Source: an uncultured Enterobacteriaceae bacterium (GTDB taxonomy: Bacteria; Myxococcota_A; UBA9042). Taken from it: a stretch of 64,000 nt of DNA. The DNA lies in contig CAZPHC010000004.1 in NCBI GenBank assembly GCA_964586155.1, forward strand, positions 130,527-194,526. Reading direction: 5' to 3'. This document shows positions 53,845 through 64,000 of the stretch, in pieces (positions within the stretch are counted from its first letter, which is position 1; the number at the start of each line of letters is the position of its first letter). The position numbers were made by a program, and so were the translations under genes. The notes beneath the pieces are model-generated. The model saw nothing but the letters and a program-made list of their open reading frames with translations. It made no database searches and was not told where the DNA came from.

Positions 53845-55896
53845 CTACTGCAGGTTCATGCCGCCGGGGTAGCCGTAGGCGGTCGCCGGGCCGTAGCCAT
53901 ACAGCGTCAGGCCGAACGCGGTCTCGGTGCTCTCGAAGCGGTGCACGCCCGGCTTGACCGCGACGTAGGCCAGCTCCCACTCGCCGCCGCCCAGGGGCGA
54001 GAAGTCGGTGTCCGGGATCTTGGTGCCGTCGACCGAGACCGCGACGCCCTTGGGTCGCACGACCGAGGCCCAGTTCTGCGTGTAGCCGATCGGCGTGAGG
54101 ATGAAGTAGTCCTTGCGCATCTGGTTGATCGGCGAGTGCACGATCATCGTCGGATCGCCGATGAAGTCGGACGTCTGTCCCTGGCTGACGATGAACTGGG
54201 CGATCTGGATCGGACCAGTTCCTTCGATGACGAAGGATTGGTCGGCCTCGACCTGGACCCATTGGCCCGGGCTGCCGAGGGTCTTGCCGTCCAGGCCGGG
54301 GATCGACGGCGTCGTCTTGAGCACGGTGCCGGGCAGCGACGCCATCACCAGCCAGAGGTCGGGCTCGTTGCCGCGCGGTTTGGTCTTGGGCGCGATGTAG
54401 GTCGTGCCCCAGGCGTTGACCGGCAGCAGCTGCTCCTCGACGTGCTCCGCGCAGCAGCTCTCTTCGCCGCCGTTCTTCCAGCCGAGCACGGCCTCCTCGT
54501 GGCCGCCGAACACGGCCACGGCCTTGGTCGCCACGATGTGGCTGCCCGTCAGATCGCCGATCTTGGTCAGCGAGCTCGTCGCTTCGAGGTTGAGCACATC
54601 GTATTGTTGCAGCTTGAAGCTCGCGGTCTGGCCGTTGGCGATGGGCAGCTTGGTGATCGGGTTCTGCTTGACGTAGCCCGTGCCCGACATCGTCACAGTG
54701 ACGGTCGTCTCGCCCGGCATCGCGGCGACGACGGTGAAGTAGCCGTTCTGGCTCGGCATCGCTGGCATGCCGGGGATCGCGAAGTCCGGGCGGCTGCCCA
54801 GCGAGACGGCGAAGTACTCCTTGCCGAGCGCGTTCTGCGGCAACAGCAACGAGCCGTCGTTGCTGAAGGCCTTGTCTGCGTTGAACGGGTTGAATTGGTA
54901 GGCCACGACCGGCTGCGTCGACTTGAAGTAGATGCCCTTCTGCGAGATCGAGTTTCCGTCGACGTTCATCACCGGCATCTTGATCTCGACCGACTTGCCG
55001 GCCGGCACGACGTTGTTCGGCACGACGATCTGCCACGGGGGCTGGACGAAGAAGGTCAGCTCCGCATCGTAGATGCCCGGGTTGCTGACGACGACGGAGT
55101 GCGGCACGTGCATCGGGTTGTTGCTCAGGCCGAGCAGTCCGTCGTCGGCGTTGTCGAGGTCGACGGTCCAGTAGTCGCAGCCGACGTTGCTCGCGACCTT
55201 GCTGTTGGCTTCGCACAGGCTGACGCAGGTGCCGCCCAGGCAGTAGGCGCCGCTCTTGCAGTCCTGCGCCTCCTCCCAGCCCGAGCCGTCGGCCTTGCAG
55301 ACGCGGACCGTGCTCTGGCTGGCGCATTCCTTGGTGCCCGGCACGCAGTCGACGACCTTGCACACGCCCTCGGCGACGCAGAGTTCGCCCTCGGCGCAGT
55401 CGACCGGCTTGTAGCCCTTGCCGTCGTCGGTGCAGACGTTGAGCGAGGTGTAGCCGTAGCAGCCCTCGATGGCGCCGGGCTTGCAGTCGGCGATGACCGC
55501 GCAGGCGCCGTCCTTGCAGACCTTGCCGCCCTGGCACTTCTCGAGCAGGTCCCATTTGCCTGCGACGCACCACTTCACCGCGCTGGCGCCGAGGCAGCCC
55601 TTCTCGCCGTCGACGCAGACGGCGCCGTCGGGGAGCTCGACCGTGTCCTGGTCGGCGTCGGCCTCTGCGTCGCTGGCCGCGCCGTCGCTGCTGGTGGCGC
55701 CATCGCCGGAGACGAAGCCATCGCCGAAGTTCTGCAACCCGTCAGCGCCGGCGCCGGCGCTGCCCGTGGGCGTCTGGCTGCAACCCGCGGCCGCCACGAG
55801 GGCCACGAGCAGGGCCGCAACCAGGGCGGCAGCGTGCGTCGGCCGTGCGGCCGTGCCGTCCCGGTGGGCGTTGGAGCCGTGGAGCGTCTCGATCAT
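53845..55896 (-). CDS. Large lipoprotein, paralog of 18530..20926
   Basis: Start at M20. Lipobox LVAAAGC. Shares ordered blocks with the paralog: NVGCDYWTVDLDNA, VAYQFNPFN, CCAEHVEEQLLPVNAWGTTYIA, C-terminal YGYPGGMNLQ. Confidence 0.7.
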   Translation of the reverse strand: MIETLHGSNAHRDGTAARPTHAAALVAALLVALVAAAGCSQTPTGSAGAGADGLQNFGDGFVSGDGATSSDGAASDAEADADQDTVELPDGAVCVDGEKGCLGASAVKWCVAGKWDLLEKCQGGKVCKDGACAVIADCKPGAIEGCYGYTSLNVCTDDGKGYKPVDCAEGELCVAEGVCKVVDCVPGTKECASQSTVRVCKADGSGWEEAQDCKSGAYCLGGTCVSLCEANSKVASNVGCDYWTVDLDNADDGLLGLSNNPMHVPHSVVVSNPGIYDAELTFFVQPPWQIVVPNNVVPAGKSVEIKMPVMNVDGNSISQKGIYFKSTQPVVAYQFNPFNADKAFSNDGSLLLPQNALGKEYFAVSLGSRPDFAIPGMPAMPSQNGYFTVVAAMPGETTVTVTMSGTGYVKQNPITKLPIANGQTASFKLQQYDVLNLEATSSLTKIGDLTGSHIVATKAVAVFGGHEEAVLGWKNGGEESCCAEHVEEQLLPVNAWGTTYIAPKTKPRGNEPDLWLVMASLPGTVLKTTPSIPGLDGKTLGSPGQWVQVEADQSFVIEGTGPIQIAQFIVSQGQTSDFIGDPTMIVHSPINQMRKDYFILTPIGYTQNWASVVRPKGVAVSVDGTKIPDTDFSPLGGGEWELAYVAVKPGVHRFESTETAFGLTLYGYGPATAYGYPGGMNLQ

Positions 55897-56101
55897 GGCA
55901 AGCCTCGTTGACCAGGGCGCGGCGGTGCGCGTGGCGGGCCGGGAGGGTGCCACAATCGTCGGCGCGTCAAAAGCTGCAATCGCCGCCCGGCCGTTGCCGA
56001 GCCGCCGGTCGCTGGTCCACGCCGGCTTCGCCCTGGCGTCATGCAGCGCACTCCACTACGCTGGCGGCGAGCGCGTCGGCGCGCGCCTCGGGGGAGCACT
56101 C

Positions 56102-56671
56102 ATGGCCGCTGTCCGCATCCGCCGCATGTGCGGCCTGAGCGCCTTGGCTGCGCTGGTCGTCGCCGCCCCCGTCGTCGCCGCCCCCGTCGTCGCCGCCGCC
56201 TCGCCCTCCGCGCGGTGCGCAGCCGTCGTCTGGTCGCCGGCGCAGACGCGGCAGGTGAGCCATGCCGTCGTGGACGTGGTGATCGAGGACCCCGCGGTGA
56301 CGCAGCGCGTGCTGGCCAGGACCGGCAGCCCTGCGTTCGTGCGCCAATCGTGGCGGCTGCGCGTGCGCTCGGTGGCGTGGCGGGCGCAGGCGCCGGTGCG
56401 CGATCCTGGGGCCAAGGCCGCGATCGCCGCGCTGGCAGCCGACGCGTCGCTGCTCGTCGACGAGGCCGACTGGCGCGGTGCGCTGGCCCATCACCGCCGC
56501 TGCCAGACCGGACGCTGCCCCGAGCGCTGTGCTCCAGCGATGCTGACCTCGCTTTCGCGCGAGCCCGTCGCGGGCGCCGTCGTCCGGGCCTACCTGCGCT
56601 GGACCCGCGACGGCTGGGCCCTGAGCGCAGACCGCGCGTTCGACGCCGTGGACGGTGGAGGCCCGCGATGA
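56102..56671 (+). CDS. Small secreted protein, hypothetical (189 aa), translationally coupled to the GH25 gene
   Basis: GGGGGAG 6 nt upstream. Signal peptide MAAVRIRRMCGLSALAALVVAAPVVAAPVVAAAS. Strong GC3 bias. Stop overlaps the GH25 ATG (ATGA). Confidence 0.55.
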   Translation: MAAVRIRRMCGLSALAALVVAAPVVAAPVVAAASPSARCAAVVWSPAQTRQVSHAVVDVVIEDPAVTQRVLARTGSPAFVRQSWRLRVRSVAWRAQAPVRDPGAKAAIAALAADASLLVDEADWRGALAHHRRCQTGRCPERCAPAMLTSLSREPVAGAVVRAYLRWTRDGWALSADRAFDAVDGGGPR

Positions 56672-58593
56672 GTCGCCGCACCTGGGGGCGGGTCGCCGGC
56701 GGGCTGCCGCTCGTCCTGATGGCGCTCGTCGCCGCCGCGCCGCGTGTCGGCCTGGCGAAGACCGTCGTCTGCCCGGGCCCGACCATCCTCGATGGCATCG
56801 ACGTCAGCTACTGGCAGCTCGACGTCGACTGGACCAAGGTCAAGGCCGCCGGCAAGAAGTACGCGATCATGCGCGCCGCGCACGCGCTCAAGGCCGACAC
56901 CAAGTTCGCGTACAACTGGAAGACCTGCCACGCCGTCGGCCTGCATTGCGGCGTCTACCAATACTTCGAGCCCGACATCGATCCGATCGCCCAGGCGGAC
57001 CTGATGATCTCGATGATGGGCAAGCTCGCGCCCGGCGATCTGCCGCCGGTGATCGACGTGGAGTCGAAGGGCTCCGCGACGCCGACGCAATTCGCCGCCG
57101 CCATCGGCAAGTGGATGGACCGCGTCGAGAAAGCGACCGGACGCAAGCCGATGATCTACACCGGGGCGTACTTCTGGGAGGACTACGTCAAGGCGTCGAC
57201 CTGGGTGGACCACCCGCTGTGGCACGCCCAATATTGCACGAGCTGTTGCCCGAATATTCCGAATCCATGGAAGAAGTGGGCGTTCTGGCAGCATAGCTCG
57301 ACCGGCAAGGTCTCGGGCATCAACGGCAACGTCGACCTGAACCGCTTCAACGGCGATGCCGCTGCGCTCGCCGCGCTGGCCAGCGTCAAGACCTGTACCC
57401 CCGGCTGCAAGGGCAACCTCATCGTCGACGCCAACTGCGGCGAGGGCGACTGCGGCGCGTACGGGGCGTATTGCTCGATGGTCTCGACGCCGGCGCCCAA
57501 ATGCGTCTCGGCGTTCTGCGCCGCCAGCGCGACCAGCAAGCCCAAGGCCGGCGATGTCTGCCTGCCCGACGGCAAGCGCTACACCTGCGACGCGGTCGGC
57601 GACATCAAGCTCAAGGCCTGCCCGGCGGACACCTCCTGCACCATGGTCGGCGGCGCCGCGGTCTGCGCGCCGACGAGCTGCAAGCCGACGTGTTCGGGCA
57701 ATTCGCTGATCGCCACCGACTGCAGCGCCAAGGATTGCGCCACGCTGGCAGGCTTCGACGCCGGCACCTGTGTCGACGACGCGCTCGGCCCACGCTGCGT
57801 GAGCAAACACTGTCCGGCGACCGGCGTGGCCGCGACCTGCCTGCCCGATCCCAAGCACCTGCTGATGGGTCTGTGCCAGGACGGCAAGGTGACGAGCTCG
57901 TCCTGTCTCGGCGAAGGTCAGGTCTGCGCGATGACACCGGCTGGCCCGGCGTCGCCACCGGTCGCTGCCTGCGCCAGCGTCGCCTGCGCCTCCGATCCGA
58001 CCAAGCCGCTCGTGGCGAGCAGCAGCTGCGTCGACGCTGCGACGCTGCAGGTCTGCGACGACTACGGCCAGCTCACGCTCGAAGCCTGCCCCGGTGGATC
58101 GCCATGCCAGCTCGTTGCGGGCGCGGCACAATGCGGCGGGGCTGTGGTCGAGCCCGACGCGGGGGGCGGCGCAGACGGAGCCGGCGGTAGCGACGCCGGC
58201 GAGGTGCCGGACACCACGGCGAGCGCAGACGCCGAGGGCGACATCGCGCAGCACGACGCCGCATCGGCCGCGGACGTCATCATCGCCCCAGGGGCCGATG
58301 GCGGCCCCGCCCAGGACAGCGCAGCCCCGGACAGCGCGGCCCAGGACAGCGCGGCGGCGACGGCGGACGGCAATGCCGCACCAGACGACGCCCGGTCCGA
58401 GGGTGGCGGTGACGGCGTGCAGGGCGGCGGCGACGTCGGTTCCGGCGCGGTCGGAGGCCTGGCGTCGAACGCGTCGACGAGCGGCTGCAGCGTCGGTGCT
58501 CGCGCGGCGCCTGGCGACCCTGCGCCGTGGTGGACGCTGGTCGGGCTGCTCACGTTCGCGCTGATCGGCCGCAGAAGGCGCGATGCGGCCTGA
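56668..58593 (+). CDS. GH25-family muramidase (lysozyme) with Cys-rich middle region and MYXO-CTERM-like sorting tail
   Basis: Signal peptide, then GH25 motifs GIDVSYWQLDVDW...AIMRAAH...GVYQYF. A Cys-rich about 300 aa and a D/A/G-rich linker follow. The C-terminus reads GCSVGARAAPGDPAPWWTLVGLLTFALIGRRRR. Confidence 0.8.
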   Translation: MSRRTWGRVAGGLPLVLMALVAAAPRVGLAKTVVCPGPTILDGIDVSYWQLDVDWTKVKAAGKKYAIMRAAHALKADTKFAYNWKTCHAVGLHCGVYQYFEPDIDPIAQADLMISMMGKLAPGDLPPVIDVESKGSATPTQFAAAIGKWMDRVEKATGRKPMIYTGAYFWEDYVKASTWVDHPLWHAQYCTSCCPNIPNPWKKWAFWQHSSTGKVSGINGNVDLNRFNGDAAALAALASVKTCTPGCKGNLIVDANCGEGDCGAYGAYCSMVSTPAPKCVSAFCAASATSKPKAGDVCLPDGKRYTCDAVGDIKLKACPADTSCTMVGGAAVCAPTSCKPTCSGNSLIATDCSAKDCATLAGFDAGTCVDDALGPRCVSKHCPATGVAATCLPDPKHLLMGLCQDGKVTSSSCLGEGQVCAMTPAGPASPPVAACASVACASDPTKPLVASSSCVDAATLQVCDDYGQLTLEACPGGSPCQLVAGAAQCGGAVVEPDAGGGADGAGGSDAGEVPDTTASADAEGDIAQHDAASAADVIIAPGADGGPAQDSAAPDSAAQDSAAATADGNAAPDDARSEGGGDGVQGGGDVGSGAVGGLASNASTSGCSVGARAAPGDPAPWWTLVGLLTFALIGRRRRDAA

Positions 58594-61500
58594 GCGAACC
58601 CCGCCGCCGTGTCGCGAGGATCGTCCGCCGGTCGGCGGCCGCGGCGCAGGCGTGCGGGCGAGCGACCGGCGGCTCCGCGGTGCGGCCTTGGTCGTTTGCG
58701 GCGCCGTGATCCTCGGCTGGACGGCGATCTGCGTCGCGCCGTCGTGGGCCGCGCCGTCCGCCGCGGCGGCGCTGGCAGCGCCGTCGCCGCACGCGGCGCC
58801 CCAATCCGGGCCGGCGTCGGTGGCGCGCGCATTGCCGCTGCCGTCGCCGCTTCCGTCGCCGCTGTCGATGCCGCTGCCGTTGGCGCACGCCGTGACCGGG
58901 GTGCAGGCCGGCACCGTGACGCTGGCGCAGGCCGCCACGCTCGCGACGGCCGCGACGCCGGTCGACGTGCCGGGGGACGGCGACGCCGGCGGTGTCCGGC
59001 AAGACGCGCTGGCGCTGGCCACGGCCGCCGAGTCGATCGCCCAACAGCTCTTGGCCGAGGCCCAGCAACAGTCGGCGTTGGCCGTCGCTGCCCAGGCCGA
59101 GGCGCTGCAGCGGGCCCAGACCGCGCGGACCGAGGCCGCGCGCGCGGTAGCGGCCGAACAGGCCCGGATCAACGGCCAGCGCGTGGCGATGGCCCATGCC
59201 AACGAGGCCGTCGCCCACGCTCGCGCCGTCGCGAGCGCGGACCTGCTGCAGCGCGTGGCCAACGAGAACCGCCTGGCCAAGAAGCTGCGCACCGCTGACC
59301 GGCGGCCCGACGAGGCGACGGTCCTGTTCCACGAGGTCATCGACGCGCTCGAGAGCGGCCGTGCGGCCTTCGCCGAGGCCCTCGATGCCCTGGGGCGAGG
59401 CGACGTCGGCTTGCCGGACGAGCTGCCTCCGCTCGATGTCTCTGCGCCCGGCTGGGCGGTGATGTCCGAGCAGGAGCGGCGGTCCCTCAGCATCGATCGC
59501 GACCGTCTGGCCGCAGAGCGCGCCGTCTGGGTGGCGTCGGCCCGCGAGTCGCTGCTCGCCAGCGCCGCCGGCCTCGCCGACCACCTCGACGCGTTGGTCG
59601 CGCTGCGCACGCTCGCCATCGATGCCTTGCCAGCCGAGGCCCGCGACGAGCTCTTTGGTTGGACCCAGGCGGGCTACCGCCAGCTCGTGCGCGAGCTGCG
59701 CCACCTCGAGCTGATGGCGCGTTGGTACCCGCAGTCGCGGCTGCGGGCGCTGCGCCTGCCCGACTCCGTCGAAGGCTGGGTGCTGCGGATCAGCGCGTTG
59801 CTCGGCTCGCTCGCGCGGTTGATGGTGCTCGCGCTGCTGTGGTGGATCTCGCGGCGCCATTGGCGACAGTGGCTGGATCTCGGGCTGGTCTGGCTGCGTG
59901 GCCGGACTGGCCACGGGTTCTGGGGCCAATCGCTCGTGCTGCTCGTGACCGGAGTTCGCGCCGTCGGTGGCGAGCTGATGACCGTCATCGTGTTGGCGCT
60001 CTTGTTCGGCTTCGCGCTGTCGGGGACGTTGGCGGGCGAGCTGGCCCTGGTCGCCGAGCTGCTGCGGATCTGGGCCTGGATCCGCTTGCTGCAGGCGGCG
60101 GCCTACGCGTTCTTGACCGGCGCGGCCTCGGACGCCGCACGGCGCGAGATCTCGCCCGAGATCGCGTCGCGCATCCTGCGGACGCTGCGCATCATCGCGC
60201 GCGCCGTCTGGGCTGTGCTCTCGGTGCTGGCCGTCGCGAGCCACCTGCTCGGCCGCGGCTACCTCTACCTGCTCGTGGTGCAGATCGCCTGGCTCGCCGT
60301 GCTGCCGATCCTGCTTTGGTTGGTGCGTGGCTGGCAGGGCTCCATCTGCGACGCGTACCTGCAGGCGTACCCGGGCGGCGCGCTGACCCGCGCGGTCGAG
60401 GCCGGTCGCGATCGCTGGTATGGCGTCGTCGTCGCGTTGCTCGCGTTCTCGGCCGTCGCGATGACCGGCATCGCGGTCTGGGCCGGCGAGATGGCGCTAC
60501 GCTTCGAACAGACGCGGCGGTTGCTGGCGTTCTTGTTCCGGCGTCGGCTCGAGAGCGCCGCGCTGGCCCTTCAGCCCCCGGTGCAGAGCGCCGCCGACTT
60601 GCCCGACCCGCTGCGCACGGCCCTGACGGATCATCCTGCTGACGCCGGCGAGCTCGTCGGGGGGCTGCCGCAGCTCCAGGAGATCGCAGACGAGATCTGC
60701 ACCGCGATGGGCGGTGGCCCTGCCATCGCCGGCGTGGCCGCCACGGATCCCGCGCCCGGCGCGACGCCTCGTCGCCGCGCTGGCGCCGACGTGCAGGTGG
60801 TCGCGCTGGTCGGTGCCTGGGGCGTCGGCAAGACGACCTGGCTGCAGGCGCTGCGGCGGCAGCTCGTCGCCGCGGGGCCTGACGGCCGCACGCTGGCGGA
60901 CCGTGGCGTCGAGGTCTCCTTGCTGCAGATGGAGCGCACGCAACGCGACGGCGTCGGCCTGATCGACGGCCTGGCGCGGGAACTCGGGCTGTCGGCGCCG
61001 CCCGATGGCCCGCTGCTGCTGCGTGCGGGTGTGCTCGGCGACGCGTTGGCCTTCGGGCCCGCGCGGGTCGTGCTGCTCGACGACGCCGGGCGCGTGCTGC
61101 TCGCGTCGATGGGCGGAAGCGCGGCCTGGGATGCGCTGGCCATGGTGATCCAGCGCAGCGCGGTCAACGTCGCCTGGGTCGTCGCGATCTCGGACCACGC
61201 CCAGCGCCGCATCGGCCAGCTGCGCCCTGGCGTCGACCTCTTCGCCCGTCGCGTCGAGCTGACCGCGTGGGACGAAAACCGCCTCGGCGACCTGATCGAG
61301 GCGCGCATGCGCCAGGCGGGGGCGACGGCCCACTTCGACGACCTCATCGATTCCGATCTGGACGCCGGCGACGCGCTGCTCGAGGGGGTGCGCGTCGGCG
61401 AGCGGTTCATCCGGCTGCTCTGGGATCAAGCAGATGGCAACCCTCGGGACGCGCTCAACTTCTGGGCCCGGTCCCTGGCGCCGGTCAGCGCGACGGACGT

Positions 61501-61780
61501 GCGGGTCCGGTTGTTCGAGGCCCCGTCCGCCGACGCGATCGAGCGACTTGGCGTCCCGGCGCGCTTCCTGCTCCACGCCCTGGTCGCCCACGACGGCCTG
61601 ACGCCGGCCGAGCTGGCGGCGGTCCTGTTCGAGCCCGAGGCCGTCATGATCGACCGCACCCGCTGGCTGTGCGGCGTCGGCATCATCGAGGAGGTCGACG
61701 GCTACCTCGTCGTCGCCGAGCGGTGGCATCGTGCCGTCGTGCGCTATCTGCAGCGCAAACACCTGCTGCTGCGGTCCTGA
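58583..61780 (+). CDS. Large membrane protein: signal/TM, Ala/Gln-rich coiled coil, MscK-like multi-TM region, C-terminal AAA+/P-loop NTPase with winged-helix-like end
   Basis: About 250 aa of AQ-rich helical segment, then about 8 TMs (WVLRISALLGSLARLMVLALLWW..., LYLLVVQIAWLAVLPILLWLV). Walker A VVALVGAWGVGKTTWL and Walker B VVLLDDAG follow. The start overlaps the GH25 stop by 11 nt. Confidence 0.65.
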   Translation: MRPERTPPPCREDRPPVGGRGAGVRASDRRLRGAALVVCGAVILGWTAICVAPSWAAPSAAAALAAPSPHAAPQSGPASVARALPLPSPLPSPLSMPLPLAHAVTGVQAGTVTLAQAATLATAATPVDVPGDGDAGGVRQDALALATAAESIAQQLLAEAQQQSALAVAAQAEALQRAQTARTEAARAVAAEQARINGQRVAMAHANEAVAHARAVASADLLQRVANENRLAKKLRTADRRPDEATVLFHEVIDALESGRAAFAEALDALGRGDVGLPDELPPLDVSAPGWAVMSEQERRSLSIDRDRLAAERAVWVASARESLLASAAGLADHLDALVALRTLAIDALPAEARDELFGWTQAGYRQLVRELRHLELMARWYPQSRLRALRLPDSVEGWVLRISALLGSLARLMVLALLWWISRRHWRQWLDLGLVWLRGRTGHGFWGQSLVLLVTGVRAVGGELMTVIVLALLFGFALSGTLAGELALVAELLRIWAWIRLLQAAAYAFLTGAASDAARREISPEIASRILRTLRIIARAVWAVLSVLAVASHLLGRGYLYLLVVQIAWLAVLPILLWLVRGWQGSICDAYLQAYPGGALTRAVEAGRDRWYGVVVALLAFSAVAMTGIAVWAGEMALRFEQTRRLLAFLFRRRLESAALALQPPVQSAADLPDPLRTALTDHPADAGELVGGLPQLQEIADEICTAMGGGPAIAGVAATDPAPGATPRRRAGADVQVVALVGAWGVGKTTWLQALRRQLVAAGPDGRTLADRGVEVSLLQMERTQRDGVGLIDGLARELGLSAPPDGPLLLRAGVLGDALAFGPARVVLLDDAGRVLLASMGGSAAWDALAMVIQRSAVNVAWVVAISDHAQRRIGQLRPGVDLFARRVELTAWDENRLGDLIEARMRQAGATAHFDDLIDSDLDAGDALLEGVRVGERFIRLLWDQADGNPRDALNFWARSLAPVSATDVRVRLFEAPSADAIERLGVPARFLLHALVAHDGLTPAELAAVLFEPEAVMIDRTRWLCGVGIIEEVDGYLVVAERWHRAVVRYLQRKHLLLRS

Positions 61781-62693
61781 TCCGCGCGCCGCGCTGGAGG
61801 CCCAACTGGGGAACGACACCATCAACATCCTGGAGTTCGTACGGGTCGCGGGCCTGCTCCCGGCGCTGCTCGTGCTCGTCGTCGCCTGGGCGGTCGCTGG
61901 CATCATCGGTCGCACCGTCGAGCAGCTCGGCCAGCGCTTCACGCAATGGCGCCTGCTGCTGCAGCAGATCGGCACGTCGCTGCGCTTTTCGCTCTACATC
62001 TTCGCCATCGTCGCGGCCGTGCCGCTGGCCTTCAACCTCTCGGACCAGGCGCTGCTCGCCCTGGGCGGCACCATCGCCGTCACCGCCGGCTTCGCGTTCA
62101 AGGACCTCGGCGCGTCGATCCTCGCCGGCATCACGATCCTCGCCGATCGGCCGTTCCAGGTCGGTGACCGCGTCAGTTTTGGTGGCTACTATGGGGAGAT
62201 CACGAGCATCGGCCTGCGTTCGGTCCGGCTCGTGACGCTCGACGACAACCTGGTCACGATCCCGAACAACAAGTTCCTGACCGAGGTCGTGGCCTGCGGC
62301 AACGCCGGCGCGCTCGACATGCTCGTGCAGATGGACTTCTACGTCGGCATCGACCAGGACGTGATCCAGGCCCGCGAGGTGGTGCAAGAGGCCCTGACGA
62401 CCACCCGCTACGCCTACCTCGACAAGCCCTGGGTGGTCCTGGTCAACGAGGTCGTCCACGAGGGCTACTTCGCCGTCCGATTGCGGGCCAAGGTCTATGT
62501 GGTCGACCTGCACTTCGAGAAGGCGCTCGAGAGCGACGTGACGCTTCGGGTGCTCGATGGGCTCCGCCGCGCCGGGATCGCGCCGCCGGCGATGCTGCAT
62601 CGCTCGCTCGACGCGGGCGTGAACGGCGCGACCGCCGCTCCGGCGCCGGTGCTGGCGCGCGCTGCCGCCGGCGAGGGGAGCCCACGACCGTGA
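61731..62693 (+). CDS. MscS-family mechanosensitive channel-like protein (3 TM + beta domain)
   Basis: GTG start in a different frame, overlapping the upstream gene by 50 nt. Pore-helix and beta-domain signature GGTIAVTAGFAFKDLGASILAGITILADRPFQVGDRVSFGGYYGEITSIGLRSVRLVTLDDNLVTIPNNKF. Confidence 0.75.
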   Translation: MPSCAICSANTCCCGPDPRAALEAQLGNDTINILEFVRVAGLLPALLVLVVAWAVAGIIGRTVEQLGQRFTQWRLLLQQIGTSLRFSLYIFAIVAAVPLAFNLSDQALLALGGTIAVTAGFAFKDLGASILAGITILADRPFQVGDRVSFGGYYGEITSIGLRSVRLVTLDDNLVTIPNNKFLTEVVACGNAGALDMLVQMDFYVGIDQDVIQAREVVQEALTTTRYAYLDKPWVVLVNEVVHEGYFAVRLRAKVYVVDLHFEKALESDVTLRVLDGLRRAGIAPPAMLHRSLDAGVNGATAAPAPVLARAAAGEGSPRP

Positions 62694-64000
62694 GCTGTGC
62701 CACCGGGGCCGCGCATGCGACCGTGACGCCGCGGCCACCGCATCCGCTCGACATGGCGGTGCAGTGGCGACCGTCGCAGGAGCTGGCCATCGCCAAGGTC
62801 CTGGCCGCCGCCGAGACCGGCAGCAGTCGCCTGCACCTCGTCGCGCCGCCCGGCGCGGGCAAGACCTGGATGGGCCTGTACATCGCGCTGGCCCTCGGCC
62901 GGCCGATCGTCGCGCTCGCCAACACCCGCGGCATCGCCGAGCAGTGGCGGGCTGCGTTGTTGCAGACCGCCGTCGCGCTCGAAGGCCGGATGTCCGGGCC
63001 CCTGGCCGATCGCGTCGTCACCGAGCTGCCGGGTGTGCACGACAAGCTGCCGCTGCTGCTGGCGACCACCTACCAGGCCTGGACCCGCCAACGGCCCGAG
63101 AAGCTGCAGCGAGGCGCGGACGTCCGCGAGCGCCTGGCCCCCAGCGTGCTCGCGCTGCACGAGCGCTACGCGCGCGCCGGCGCGCTGCTGATCCTCGACG
63201 AGTGCCACCACCTGCTCGCGTGGTGGGCCGAGGTCATCGAACACCAGCAGCGGACCTTCGAGGAGCTCGTCACCTTGGGGCTGACGGCGACGCCGCCGCA
63301 GGACGCACCCGCCGACCAGCGTCGCCGCTACAGCGCGATCGTCGGGCCGATCTGCGCCGAGATCCCGCTGGTCGCGGCGGTGCGCGAGCAGGCGCTTGCC
63401 CCGTTCCAGGACCTCGCGCTCTTCGTCCGCCCCGATCAGGCCGAGGAGGCCGCGATCGCCGGCGTCGACGCAGCCTGGTCGGCGTGGTTGGCCGGCGCGC
63501 GGCCGAGCTGGCACGGCGATGAGGATGACGCGGACGCGATGACCCTCTGGCTGCCGGGGCTCGACGCCCACGTCCAGGCCCGGACGACGGTCTGTCCGGG
63601 CCGGCGGCGGCTCGCAGCGAGCGACATGCTCGCCCTCTGCGAGCGCGATCCTGCGTTCGCCTCGGCCCTGGTGCGCTGGCTCATGGCCCACGACCTCGAG
63701 ATCCCCGCCGAGGTCTACCCCCTGGCCGAGATGTCCTTCCCGCCGACGCGGCAGGACGTGCTGGCGCTGGTCGACGACTACGTCGTGGCGGTCCTGGCCC
63801 CGCTGCTGGTCGCGGCGTCGGGCGCCGAGGACGCCGAGGAGGCCGAGGACGCCGAGGACGCCGAGGACGCCGAGGACGCCGAGGACGCCGAGGACGCCGC
63901 CGCAGACCCGGACGACGCGGACGCCGGCGACGGCGATGCCGGTCGCGCGCCTCCCCCGGCCGCCGCGATCGCCGCCGCCGGCGCGGGCACGGTGGACCCC
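62690..64000 (+). CDS. Superfamily-2 helicase (DEAH / ResIII-like), partial; continues past the window end
   Basis: Hand translation of a frame not in the ORF track. The GTG overlaps the MscS stop (GTGA). Walker A LHLVAPPGAGKTWMG and motif II LILDECHHL are present. Later residues are AEDAEEAEDAEDAEDAEDAEDAEDAA and the frame is still open at position 64000. Confidence 0.65.
   Translation, partial: MSCATGAAHATVTPRPPHPLDMAVQWRPSQELAIAKVLAAAETGSSRLHLVAPPGAGKTWMGLYIALALGRPIVALANTRGIAEQWRAALLQTAVALEGRMSGPLADRVVTELPGVHDKLPLLLATTYQAWTRQRPEKLQRGADVRERLAPSVLALHERYARAGALLILDECHHLLAWWAEVIEHQQRTFEELVTLGLTATPPQDAPADQRRRYSAIVGPICAEIPLVAAVREQALAPFQDLALFVRPDQAEEAAIAGVDAAWSAWLAGARPSWHGDEDDADAMTLWLPGLDAHVQARTTVCPGRRRLAASDMLALCERDPAFASALVRWLMAHDLEIPAEVYPLAEMSFPPTRQDVLALVDDYVVAVLAPLLVAASGAEDAEEAEDAEDAEDAEDAEDAEDAAADPDDADAGDGDAGRAPPPAAAIAAAGAGTVDP
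63826..63900 (+). repeat. Tandem 9-bp repeat (GAGGACGCC)n inside the helicase gene, encoding an (AED)n acidic tract
   Basis: About 7 consecutive in-frame copies are visible directly in the sequence. Confidence 0.8.

What the first reader, a model, noticed from the sequence alone, without database searches (positions are those of the whole stretch)
58583..64000. Overlapping three-gene operon: coiled-coil/multi-TM/AAA+ membrane protein, MscS-family channel, SF2 DEAH helicase
Three consecutive + strand genes are chained by overlaps: an 11-nt overlap with the upstream GH25 gene, a 50-nt out-of-frame overlap at 61731-61780, and a GTGA overlap at 62690-62693. Gene 1 (1065 aa) has an MscK-like architecture, a periplasmic Ala/Gln coiled coil followed by about 8 TMs, but ends in a cytoplasmic AAA+/P-loop NTPase (Walker A GAWGVGKTT, Walker B VLLDDAG) with a winged-helix-like tail instead of a channel domain. 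Gene 2 is a complete 3-TM MscS-like channel. Gene 3 is a DEAH-box SF2 helicase (ResIII-like) whose (AED)n acidic tract precedes the window end. I do not recognise a described operon pairing a small-conductance channel module with a P-loop NTPase and a nucleic-acid helicase. The logic, a nucleic-acid-sensing ATPase or helicase plus a membrane ion-conducting effector, resembles abortive-infection systems such as Zorya, where a MotAB-like channel is paired with a helicase/nuclease. This may therefore be an undescribed membrane-depolarising defence or stress-signalling module. Its position next to a secreted muramidase gene is also notable.
Basis: partly seen in the sequence, partly recalled or inferred. 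Interest (0 to 1): 0.8.

Follow-up and report, generated by a model that had tools for sequence, protein, structure and literature searches.

The report
MscS channel paired with membrane ATPase
Two of the three genes form a widespread but undescribed bacterial gene pair, an MscS-type membrane channel plus a large membrane protein carrying an ATP-driven switch domain, while the helicase is only a local neighbour and there is no sign of an anti-phage role.

Summary
The three ORFs exist as described, with one probable correction. Gene 2 most likely starts at CTG 61806, behind a GGAGG, so the 50-nt overlap is probably an ORF-calling artefact.

In 78 of 80 metagenome loci carrying a gene-1 homolog, a gene-2 ortholog lies directly downstream on the same strand. 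The other two contigs end too early to tell. Three further loci and three alphaproteobacterial plasmids show the same pairing. None of the 80 loci has the helicase or the GH25 gene. The helicase follows the pair only in two relatives, one of which (L094) shares at least 14 kb of general synteny with the window.

Neighbours of the pair are varied housekeeping and regulatory genes. PADLOC shows no enrichment, and no phage or viral copies were found.

My best reading is a two-subunit MscS-type channel whose accessory subunit is a nucleotide-dependent switch. The pairing is shown; the mechanism is inferred.

The parts
58583..61780 (+). Gene 1: accessory or regulatory subunit, 1065 aa. It belongs to a large unnamed family labelled 'AAA family ATPase'.
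   Evidence: ORF. The family has 1,117 representative clusters at E<=1e-30, aligned end to end. AF2 model: pLDDT 82, pTM 0.66.
58655..58732 (+). N-terminal hydrophobic helix (aa 25-50), either a membrane anchor or a signal peptide. It is preceded by an Arg-rich tail.
   Evidence: Hydropathy peak at aa 34-52 with 9 K/R upstream. AF2 helix H25-50.
58991..59752 (+). Periplasmic antiparallel helical-bundle (coiled-coil) domain, aa 137-390.
59768..60571 (+). Membrane domain, aa 396-663, with about five hydrophobic TM segments. It ends in the conserved cytoplasmic motif TRRxLAYLFRR.
   Evidence: Hydropathy, AF2 helices and conservation. This region has a median net charge of +17.
60788..61357 (+). 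AAA+ (AAA_22/AAA_16-type) P-loop domain, aa 736-925. Walker A is at 744-752 and Walker B at 829-835.
61358..61777 (+). Helical lid with the invariant G952-N-P954 motif, plus a C-terminal winged-helix domain, aa 926-1065.
61796..61800 (+). GGAGG Shine-Dalgarno-like motif, 5 nt upstream of the probable gene 2 start.
   Evidence: Sequence. The equivalent motif precedes the start in L009 and L094.
61806..62693 (+). Gene 2: dedicated MscS-family pore subunit. It is 295 aa from CTG 61806; the mechanical ORF call begins at GTG 61731.
   Evidence: PF00924 at 2.8e-18. It is 36-57% identical to the partners in 78 of 80 loci, but only 19-22% identical to another MscS-like gene or to E. coli MscS. The start is inferred.
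62690..64000 (+). Gene 3: SF2 DExH (ResIII) helicase, truncated by the window end. It is co-oriented and start/stop-overlapped here, but it is NOT part of the conserved module.
   Evidence: The full-length ortholog in L094 is 1004 aa and is followed by opposite-strand genes. The helicase is absent from all 80 loci.
56668..58593 (+). Upstream GH25 muramidase with a MYXO-CTERM-like tail. It is a lineage-specific neighbour and NOT part of the conserved module.
   Evidence: PF01183 at 7e-38. TIGR03901 at E 0.002. Absent from all 80 loci.

Best explanation
The functional unit is a two-gene module, not a trio.

Gene 2 encodes the pore-forming subunit, from a dedicated subfamily of MscS-type channels. 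Gene 1 encodes a large accessory subunit. It spans the inner membrane, puts a helical-bundle domain in the periplasm, and places an ORC/Cdc6- and STAND-like AAA+/lid/winged-helix module in the cytoplasm.

The most likely mechanism is as follows. The nucleotide state, and probably the oligomeric state, of the AAA+ module is set by a signal received through the periplasmic and membrane parts or by cellular ATP. Through the lid and winged-helix region, that state controls the gating or activity of the MscS-like channel. Solute or ion release then becomes a regulated event rather than a purely tension-driven one.

The helicase and the GH25 muramidase are syntenic neighbours of the module in this myxobacterial lineage only.

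Shown: the composition of the module, the strict adjacency and tight spacing of the two genes, the folds and conserved ATPase motifs, and the absence of the helicase elsewhere.

Inferred: physical association of the two proteins, the direction of signalling, and the physiological role (osmotic or envelope homeostasis).
For: Pairing:
- 78 of 80 metagenome loci have a gene 2 ortholog immediately downstream on the same strand. The other two loci end less than 200 nt after gene 1.
- The same arrangement occurs in L003, L004 and L005, in Novosphingobium pLA3 and in a Caulobacter plasmid.
- In most of the 81 loci examined a possible partner start lies between -4 and +20 nt of the gene 1 stop.
- From the gene 2 side, the only plasmid hits at 47% identity or more are the three records that also carry gene 1.
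- No other gene family recurs in more than 13 of 84 loci.

Dedicated channel subfamily:
- Partners share a mean 56% identity with each other, against 19-22% to other MscS proteins.

ATPase:
- AAA_22 hits 38 of 39 family members.
- The Walker A Lys, the Walker B Asp and R881, R908 and R944 are nearly invariant.
- The lid and winged helix are the most conserved parts of gene 1.

Minimal version:
- In a haloarchaeal plasmid an MscS-like gene (38% identity) is preceded, with a 4-nt overlap, by a soluble 331-aa protein. hhalign matches that protein to the AAA+/lid/WH region (probability 93.6%, E 2.2e-7). This points to a cytoplasmic link between the AAA+/WH module and the channel.

Helicase exclusion.
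Against: - There is no direct evidence that the two proteins touch. No multimer prediction could be run, and no gene 1-gene 2 fusion was seen among 150 representatives.
- ORC/Cdc6- and STAND-type ATPases usually act on DNA or in immunity, and none is known to regulate a channel.
- The neighbourhood gives only faint physiological hints: extra MscS genes in 7 of 142 neighbouring ORFs, and single cases of a Na+/H+ antiporter and a trehalose-6-P synthase.
- The archaeal minimal pair is a single example, and its Walker A looks degenerate.
- In this lineage the helicase start overlaps the gene 2 stop in three genomes, so a local functional tie cannot be excluded.
Confidence: 0.55

Rival explanations
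1. The pair is an abortive-infection or defence module. The STAND/ORC-like ATPase senses an invader, and the MscS-like pore is the effector that depolarises or empties the cell. This is a two-gene version of the first reader's idea.
For: - The ATPase fold is shared with defence NTPases: BrxC, Avs, RdrA and NLRs all appear in the fold-search lists.
- The presumed sensor subunit evolves faster (34-45% pairwise identity) than the pore subunit (56%).
- The module sits in variable neighbourhoods.
- It occurs on plasmids in Alphaproteobacteria and in a haloarchaeon.
Against: - PADLOC gives no meaningful hit for either protein.
- Of 142 neighbouring ORFs only a few hit defence models, with no enrichment. 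Pfam shows mostly regulators, transporters and metabolic enzymes.
- There are no copies in 50,697 phage records or in IMG/VR.
- The largest part of gene 1 is periplasmic and membrane-embedded, an odd place to sense intracellular phage components.
- The winged helix and ATPase domains are not basic.
Confidence: 0.15
2. Gene 1 is an assembly, insertion or quality-control factor for the channel rather than a gating regulator. The analogy is the AAA_22 membrane ATPase ExeA/GspA, which helps assemble the type II secretin.
For: - The ATPase is AAA_22 class and is membrane-anchored with a periplasmic domain.
- The genes are tightly spaced, with a 4-nt overlap or a gap of 20 nt or less available in most loci, which suits co-translation.
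- Initiator-clade AAA+ proteins act as loaders and assemblers (established knowledge, recalled from memory).
Against: - MscS-family channels assemble unaided in all studied cases (established knowledge, recalled from memory).
- The domain order is the reverse of ExeA, and no peptidoglycan-binding domain was detected.
- The archaeal soluble version lacks any membrane part.
Confidence: 0.15
3. In this particular lineage all three genes, perhaps with GH25, form one functional operon. The helicase would then have been recruited to the module, linking it to nucleic acids.
For: - The GTGA start/stop overlap between gene 2 and the helicase is kept in the window, L009 and L094, even though helicase identity is only 61% with L094.
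- An unrelated DEAD/DEAH helicase lies 1.5 kb upstream of the pair on the Caulobacter plasmid.
Against: - The window and L094 are collinear over at least 14 kb that includes unrelated genes, so adjacency there is explained by shared ancestry.
- None of the 80 other loci has the helicase.
- Helicase homologs elsewhere lack the pair.
- The Caulobacter helicase is not a specific relative of gene 3 (E 0.026, motif II only).
Confidence: 0.1

Closest known systems
MscK (KefA) and MscM, the large MscS paralogs of E. coli
   Same: The overall layout is the same: a signal or anchor helix, a long helical periplasmic domain, extra TM helices, and then an MscS pore core with its cytoplasmic vestibule. Gene 2 gives weak NCBIfam hits to the MscK and MscM pore regions.
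   Different: Here the pore core is a separate gene, and the N-terminal module ends in an AAA+/WH domain.

No homology of the gene 1 N-terminus to MscK was detected:
- No MscS_porin or MscS_TM hits in 39 family members.
- hhalign probability 0.3%.
- No MscK in the PDB profile search.
Archaeal Cdc6/Orc1 and the related initiator-clade and STAND switch ATPases (TnsC, MuB, BrxC, MalT, NLRs)
   Different: The module is fused to a periplasmic and membrane part and is paired with a channel. Sequence identity is only 10-18%. The winged helix and AAA+ domains are near neutral or acidic rather than basic. There is no sensor repeat domain C-terminal to the winged helix.
ExeA/GspA, the AAA_22 inner-membrane ATPase of type II secretion
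   Same: It is a membrane-anchored AAA_22-class ATPase with a periplasmic domain that works with a partner membrane protein (recalled from memory). Pfam gives AAA_22 for 38 of 39 family members.
   Different: The domain order is opposite. ExeA has its ATPase at the N-terminus and a single TM helix. No peptidoglycan-binding domain is present here, and the partner is a channel rather than GspB or the secretin.
   Same: Both combine a membrane ion-conducting complex with cytoplasmic NTPase or helicase components.
   Different: No ZorA, ZorB, ZorC or ZorD model matches any of the three proteins. The channel is MscS-type, not MotAB-type. The helicase is not conserved with the pair.
Ligand- or partner-regulated MscS-like channels (bCNG channels with a fused cNMP domain; PamA-PII in Synechocystis)
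   Same: These are precedents for an MscS-family pore being put under the control of a cytoplasmic signalling module (recalled from memory, not tested).
   Different: Here the regulator is a separate, membrane-integral AAA+ protein, not a fused cNMP domain or a PII protein.

Membership tests
MscS family (gene 2) | MscS beta-domain (PF00924) following the pore-lining TM3 helix | tested here: met
   PF00924 at E 2.8e-18. The alignment to E. coli MscS is ungapped through TM3 and the beta-domain.
MscS family (gene 2) | Three TM helices, a hydrophobic gate, and the C-terminal alpha/beta vestibule domain | tested here: met
   TM segments are at aa 41-59 and 86-104, followed by TM3. V and F occupy the positions of L105 and L109. 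The Novosphingobium ortholog also hits MS_channel_1st and MS_channel_3rd.
MscK/MscM-type large MscS paralogs (gene 1 N-terminal part) | MscS_porin or MscS_TM N-terminal domains homologous to MscK | tested here: not met
   - No such Pfam hit in 39 members at E<=0.01, nor at E<=10 in 4 members.
- hhalign against E. coli MscK gives probability 0.3%.
MscK/MscM-type large MscS paralogs (gene 1) | Pore core fused in the same polypeptide | tested here: not met
   Gene 1 ends in an AAA+/WH module. No MscS match was found in any of the 150 representatives.
AAA+ ATPases, ORC/Cdc6-like (AAA_22) (gene 1 C-terminal part) | Walker A GxxGxGK[ST] and Walker B hhhhD[DE], conserved across the family | tested here: met
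   G744, G747, G749, K750, D833 and D834 are invariant or conserved in at least 90% of sequences. AAA_22 hits 38 of 39 members.
AAA+ ATPases, ORC/Cdc6-like (AAA_22) (gene 1 C-terminal part) | AAA+ base, helical lid and C-terminal winged helix in that order | tested here: met
AAA+ ATPases, ORC/Cdc6-like (gene 1 C-terminal part) | DNA binding through the winged helix and the initiator-specific motif | not testable with these tools
   Only an indirect hint is available. The winged helix has a median net charge of +1 (window -1), and the AAA+ and lid regions are acidic.
SF2 DExH helicase, ResIII-type (gene 3) | RecA1 domain with motifs I, II (DExH) and III | tested here: met
   GAGKT, DECH and TATP are visible in the translation. 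ResIII at 3.5e-16.
SF2 DExH helicase, ResIII-type (gene 3) | Second RecA-like domain (Helicase_C) | tested here: inconclusive
   The window ends first. The full-length 1004-aa ortholog in L094 gives only ResIII and DEAD in Pfam and only N-terminal XPB and UvrB matches in the PDB.
Zorya or any catalogued anti-phage system | Match of the component proteins to the system's models (PADLOC-DB v2) | tested here: not met
   - Gene 1 gives only PifA at E 0.0075 over 30 residues.
- Gene 2 gives nothing.
- Gene 3 gives partial PbeA and DinG hits over the generic helicase motifs.
Zorya or any catalogued anti-phage system | Location in defence islands, or enrichment of defence genes nearby | tested here: not met
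   142 neighbouring ORFs from 59 loci show no enriched defence family. Their Pfam content is housekeeping or regulatory.
   The helicase is found with the pair only in the relatives L009 and L094, the latter collinear with the window. It is absent from all 80 metagenome loci.

The most novel reading that the evidence does not exclude
This would be the first MscS-family channel gated or controlled by a dedicated, membrane-integral ORC/Cdc6- and STAND-like AAA+ switch protein, in other words an ATP-dependent, signal-regulated 'mechanosensitive' channel complex. It is widespread in Myxococcota, has outliers in Alphaproteobacteria, and a minimal soluble-ATPase version exists in a haloarchaeon.
Probability: 0.4. 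Interest if true: 0.7.

Novelty: new variant of a known kind. Interest (0 to 1): 0.55.

Why it matters
MscS-type channels are the textbook case of gating by membrane tension alone. Known elaborations are fused domains, such as the MscK periplasmic domain or the cNMP domains of bCNG channels.

A strictly conserved operon partner that brings an AAA+ switch to the channel would add nucleotide-dependent control to this channel superfamily. It would also give a function to a family of more than 1,000 clusters currently labelled only 'AAA family ATPase'.

It would further be an unusual use of the ORC/Cdc6/STAND fold, away from DNA and immunity.

The negative result matters as well. Start/stop overlaps and a suggestive domain mix were not enough to define a system, and the helicase should not be annotated as part of it.

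Tried and rejected
1. Word-indexed homolog searches with gene 1 alone and with the 67-sequence alignment returned only 4-5 proteins, probably because low-complexity words swamped the candidate list. The exhaustive HMMER search showed the family is in fact large.
No per-genome presence/absence survey was therefore possible.
4. I tested the defence hypothesis with PADLOC on the three proteins and on 142 neighbours, with the phage collection and with IMG/VR. Nothing supports it.
5. I looked for a third conserved gene by all-vs-all clustering of flanking ORFs and found none.
6. I looked for gene 1-gene 2 fusions among 150 representatives and found none. The one over-long protein, P0151, is a merged GH25+gene 1 call in a relative.
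7. The promoter and terminator scan of 55.5-64 kb was uninformative at 72% GC.
8. Four literature searches combining MscS with AAA+, ORC, Myxococcus or defence terms found no description of the pair.
9. The Caulobacter plasmid helicase near the pair is not a specific relative of gene 3.
Full report
**Observation**

- Gene 1 is 58583-61780, 1065 aa.
- Gene 2 has its first canonical start at GTG 61731 and its stop at 62693.
- Gene 3 starts at GTG 62690 and runs off the window end.

The GTGA junction between genes 2 and 3 and the 11-nt overlap between GH25 and gene 1 are both in the sequence. An in-frame GTG at 58652 could also serve as the gene 1 start.

Pfam gives the following:

| Protein | Hit | E-value |
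|---|---|---|
| Gene 1 | AAA_22 (below threshold) | 2.3e-4 |
| Gene 2 | MS_channel_2nd | 2.8e-18 |
| Gene 3 | ResIII | 3.5e-16 |
| Gene 3 | DEAD | 3.8e-7 |
| Upstream gene | Glyco_hydro_25 | 7e-38 |

The 50-nt overlap between genes 1 and 2 is probably not real. In the syntenic relative L094 the channel gene starts with ATG 9 nt after the gene 1 stop, behind GGAGGAG. Its first residues, MGED, align with window LGND at CTG 61806. The L003 ortholog also starts there. GGAGG sits 5 nt upstream of that codon in both the window and L009.

**What is conserved**

A first word-indexed search made gene 1 look nearly unique, with 4 hits. An exhaustive HMMER search of 1.84 billion representatives with a four-sequence profile found:
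- 3,172 proteins at E<=1e-3;
- 1,117 proteins at E<=1e-30;
- a top 150 that are mostly 900-1,250 aa long and matched end to end.

Where a source names them, they are 'AAA family ATPase' or 'hypothetical', from Myxococcota, Myxococcales, Polyangiaceae, Archangium or 'Deltaproteobacteria' MAGs.

A metagenome scan with a 67-sequence alignment returned 80 loci.
- Local tblastn found a gene 2 ortholog (36-57% identity) directly downstream on the same strand in 78 of them.
- The remaining two contigs end 34 and 196 nt after gene 1.
- No locus contains a relative of the helicase or of GH25.

The same pair occurs in L003, L004 and L005. In most loci a possible channel start lies between -4 and +20 nt of the gene 1 stop. 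Clustering all flanking ORFs found no third family present in more than 13 of 84 loci.

The partner channels are much closer to each other (mean 56% identity) than to a second MscS-like gene in L005 or to E. coli MscS (19-22%). They therefore form a dedicated subfamily.

The pair also crosses phyla. It is annotated as 'AAA family ATPase' plus 'mechanosensitive ion channel family protein' on Novosphingobium pentaromativorans pLA3, and it occurs on a Caulobacter plasmid. Searching plasmids with gene 2, the only hits at 47% identity or more are the three records that also carry gene 1.

The next hit is a haloarchaeal plasmid, where an MscS-like gene (38% identity) overlaps by 4 nt a 331-aa soluble protein. 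hhalign matches that protein to the AAA+/lid/WH part of the gene 1 family (probability 93.6%, E 2.2e-7, 235 columns). It is a single example.

**The helicase**

Its relatives P0016 and P0017 sit in unrelated contexts. It follows the channel gene only in L009 (helicase 87% identical; a 2.2-kb contig that also holds the end of gene 1) and in L094 (61% identical). L094 is collinear with the window over at least 14 kb, including the epimerase, methyltransferase, GT2, IgGFc-binding and GH25 genes.

In L094 the helicase is 1004 aa and is followed by opposite-strand genes, so no nuclease or further partner follows it. Pfam sees only ResIII and DEAD in it. The PDB sequence search sees only N-terminal XPB/Rad25 and UvrB similarity.

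The adjacency is therefore explained by shared ancestry within one lineage. A local functional tie cannot be excluded, but the helicase is not a component of the conserved module.

**Anatomy of gene 1**

Hydropathy and AlphaFold2 (pLDDT 82 and pTM 0.66 for the full length; 85 and 0.77 for residues 130-706) give the following layout:

| Residues | Feature |
|---|---|
| Start of protein | Arg-rich N-terminus |
| 25-50 | Hydrophobic helix |
| 50-135 | Disordered Ala/Pro-rich stretch |
| 137-390 | Long antiparallel helices |
| 396-663 | Membrane domain, about five hydrophobic segments |
| 739-917 | AAA+ alpha/beta domain |
| 928-963 | Helical lid |
| 983-1058 | Winged helix |

With one N-terminal and five later TM segments, the helical bundle is periplasmic and the ATPase cytoplasmic. 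This topology is an inference.

Several features are invariant or nearly so: Walker A G744/G747/G749/K750, Walker B D833/D834, R881, R908, R944 and the G952-N-P954 lid motif. This argues for a working nucleotide switch. The lid and winged helix are the best-conserved parts of the protein. The winged helix is about neutral, which is weak evidence against a DNA-binding role.

**Defence or housekeeping**

- PADLOC gives nothing meaningful for the three proteins.
- Among 142 ORFs flanking the pair in 59 loci, the commonest Pfam families are response regulators (7) and additional MscS channels (7). The rest are singletons such as cytochrome bd, a Na+/H+ antiporter, trehalose-6-P synthase and pyruvate kinase.
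- PADLOC hits among those neighbours are sporadic.
- The family is absent from the phage collection and from IMG/VR.

This does not exclude a defence role, but nothing supports one.

**Most likely mechanism**

The pore is gene 2. Gene 1 is an obligate accessory subunit that couples a periplasmic and membrane module to a cytoplasmic AAA+/WH switch. The archaeal minimal pair and the high conservation of the lid and winged helix suggest that the essential contact is between that cytoplasmic module and the channel.

I therefore favour nucleotide-state-dependent control of an MscS-type channel (confidence about 0.55 for the whole statement, and about 0.9 for the two-gene composition). The rivals are a two-gene abortive-infection module (0.15), an assembly factor (0.15) and a lineage-specific three-gene function (0.1).

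**Novelty**

Four full-text searches found no description of such a pairing. I rate it a new variant of a known kind: an MscS-family channel with an unprecedented AAA+ partner. The three-gene defence interpretation is not supported.

Noticed in passing
L095 4913-6714 (Salinirubellus sp. SYNS196 plasmid NZ_CP147842.1): A haloarchaeal minimal version of the pair. A soluble 331-aa protein is homologous to the AAA+/lid/WH part of gene 1 (hhalign probability 93.6%). Its Walker A looks degenerate (GDPFSGRES). It overlaps a 269-aa MscS-like gene by 4 nt. Only this one example was found.
   Followed up: partly
window 56668-58593 (+); L094 10001-14869: The GH25 muramidase has Cys-rich repeats and a C-terminal MYXO-CTERM-like sorting signal (TIGR03901, E 0.002, just under the cut-off). 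In the relative L094 the gene caller merged GH25 and gene 1 into one 1622-aa protein (P0151).
   Followed up: partly
window 61796-61808: Gene 2 probably uses a CTG start codon behind a GGAGG. The relatives L094 and L003 have ATG at the homologous position.
   Followed up: yes
L093 7428-20301 (Caulobacter sp. NIBR2454 plasmid); L019 9661-11386: Two tandem copies of the partner MscS gene follow the ATPase gene on the Caulobacter plasmid and in metagenome locus L019. The Caulobacter plasmid also carries an unrelated 1104-aa DEAD/DEAH helicase 1.5 kb upstream and a ClpB-like ATPase.
   Followed up: partly
window 63820-63900; L094 15762-18776: The helicase's (AED)n acidic tract begins where the alignment to the 1004-aa L094 ortholog ends (residue ~371), so it looks like a lineage-specific insertion. 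No Helicase_C domain or nuclease is detectable by Pfam in the ortholog's C-terminal ~600 residues.
   Followed up: partly
window 53845-55953 (-): A 702-aa secreted, Cys-rich protein whose counterparts in L001 and L094 carry PF17517 (IgGFc_binding). It lies next to PGPGW, GT2 and SAM-methyltransferase genes, and the block is syntenic in L094.
   Followed up: no
L003 (CAZLMW010000052.1): The only genome contigs locus carrying the pair is titled 'uncultured Enterobacteriaceae bacterium'. Yet it is 65% G+C and holds the closest homologs outside the window's own lineage (gene 1 31-33%, channel 65-68% identity). The MAG label is probably wrong.
   Followed up: no
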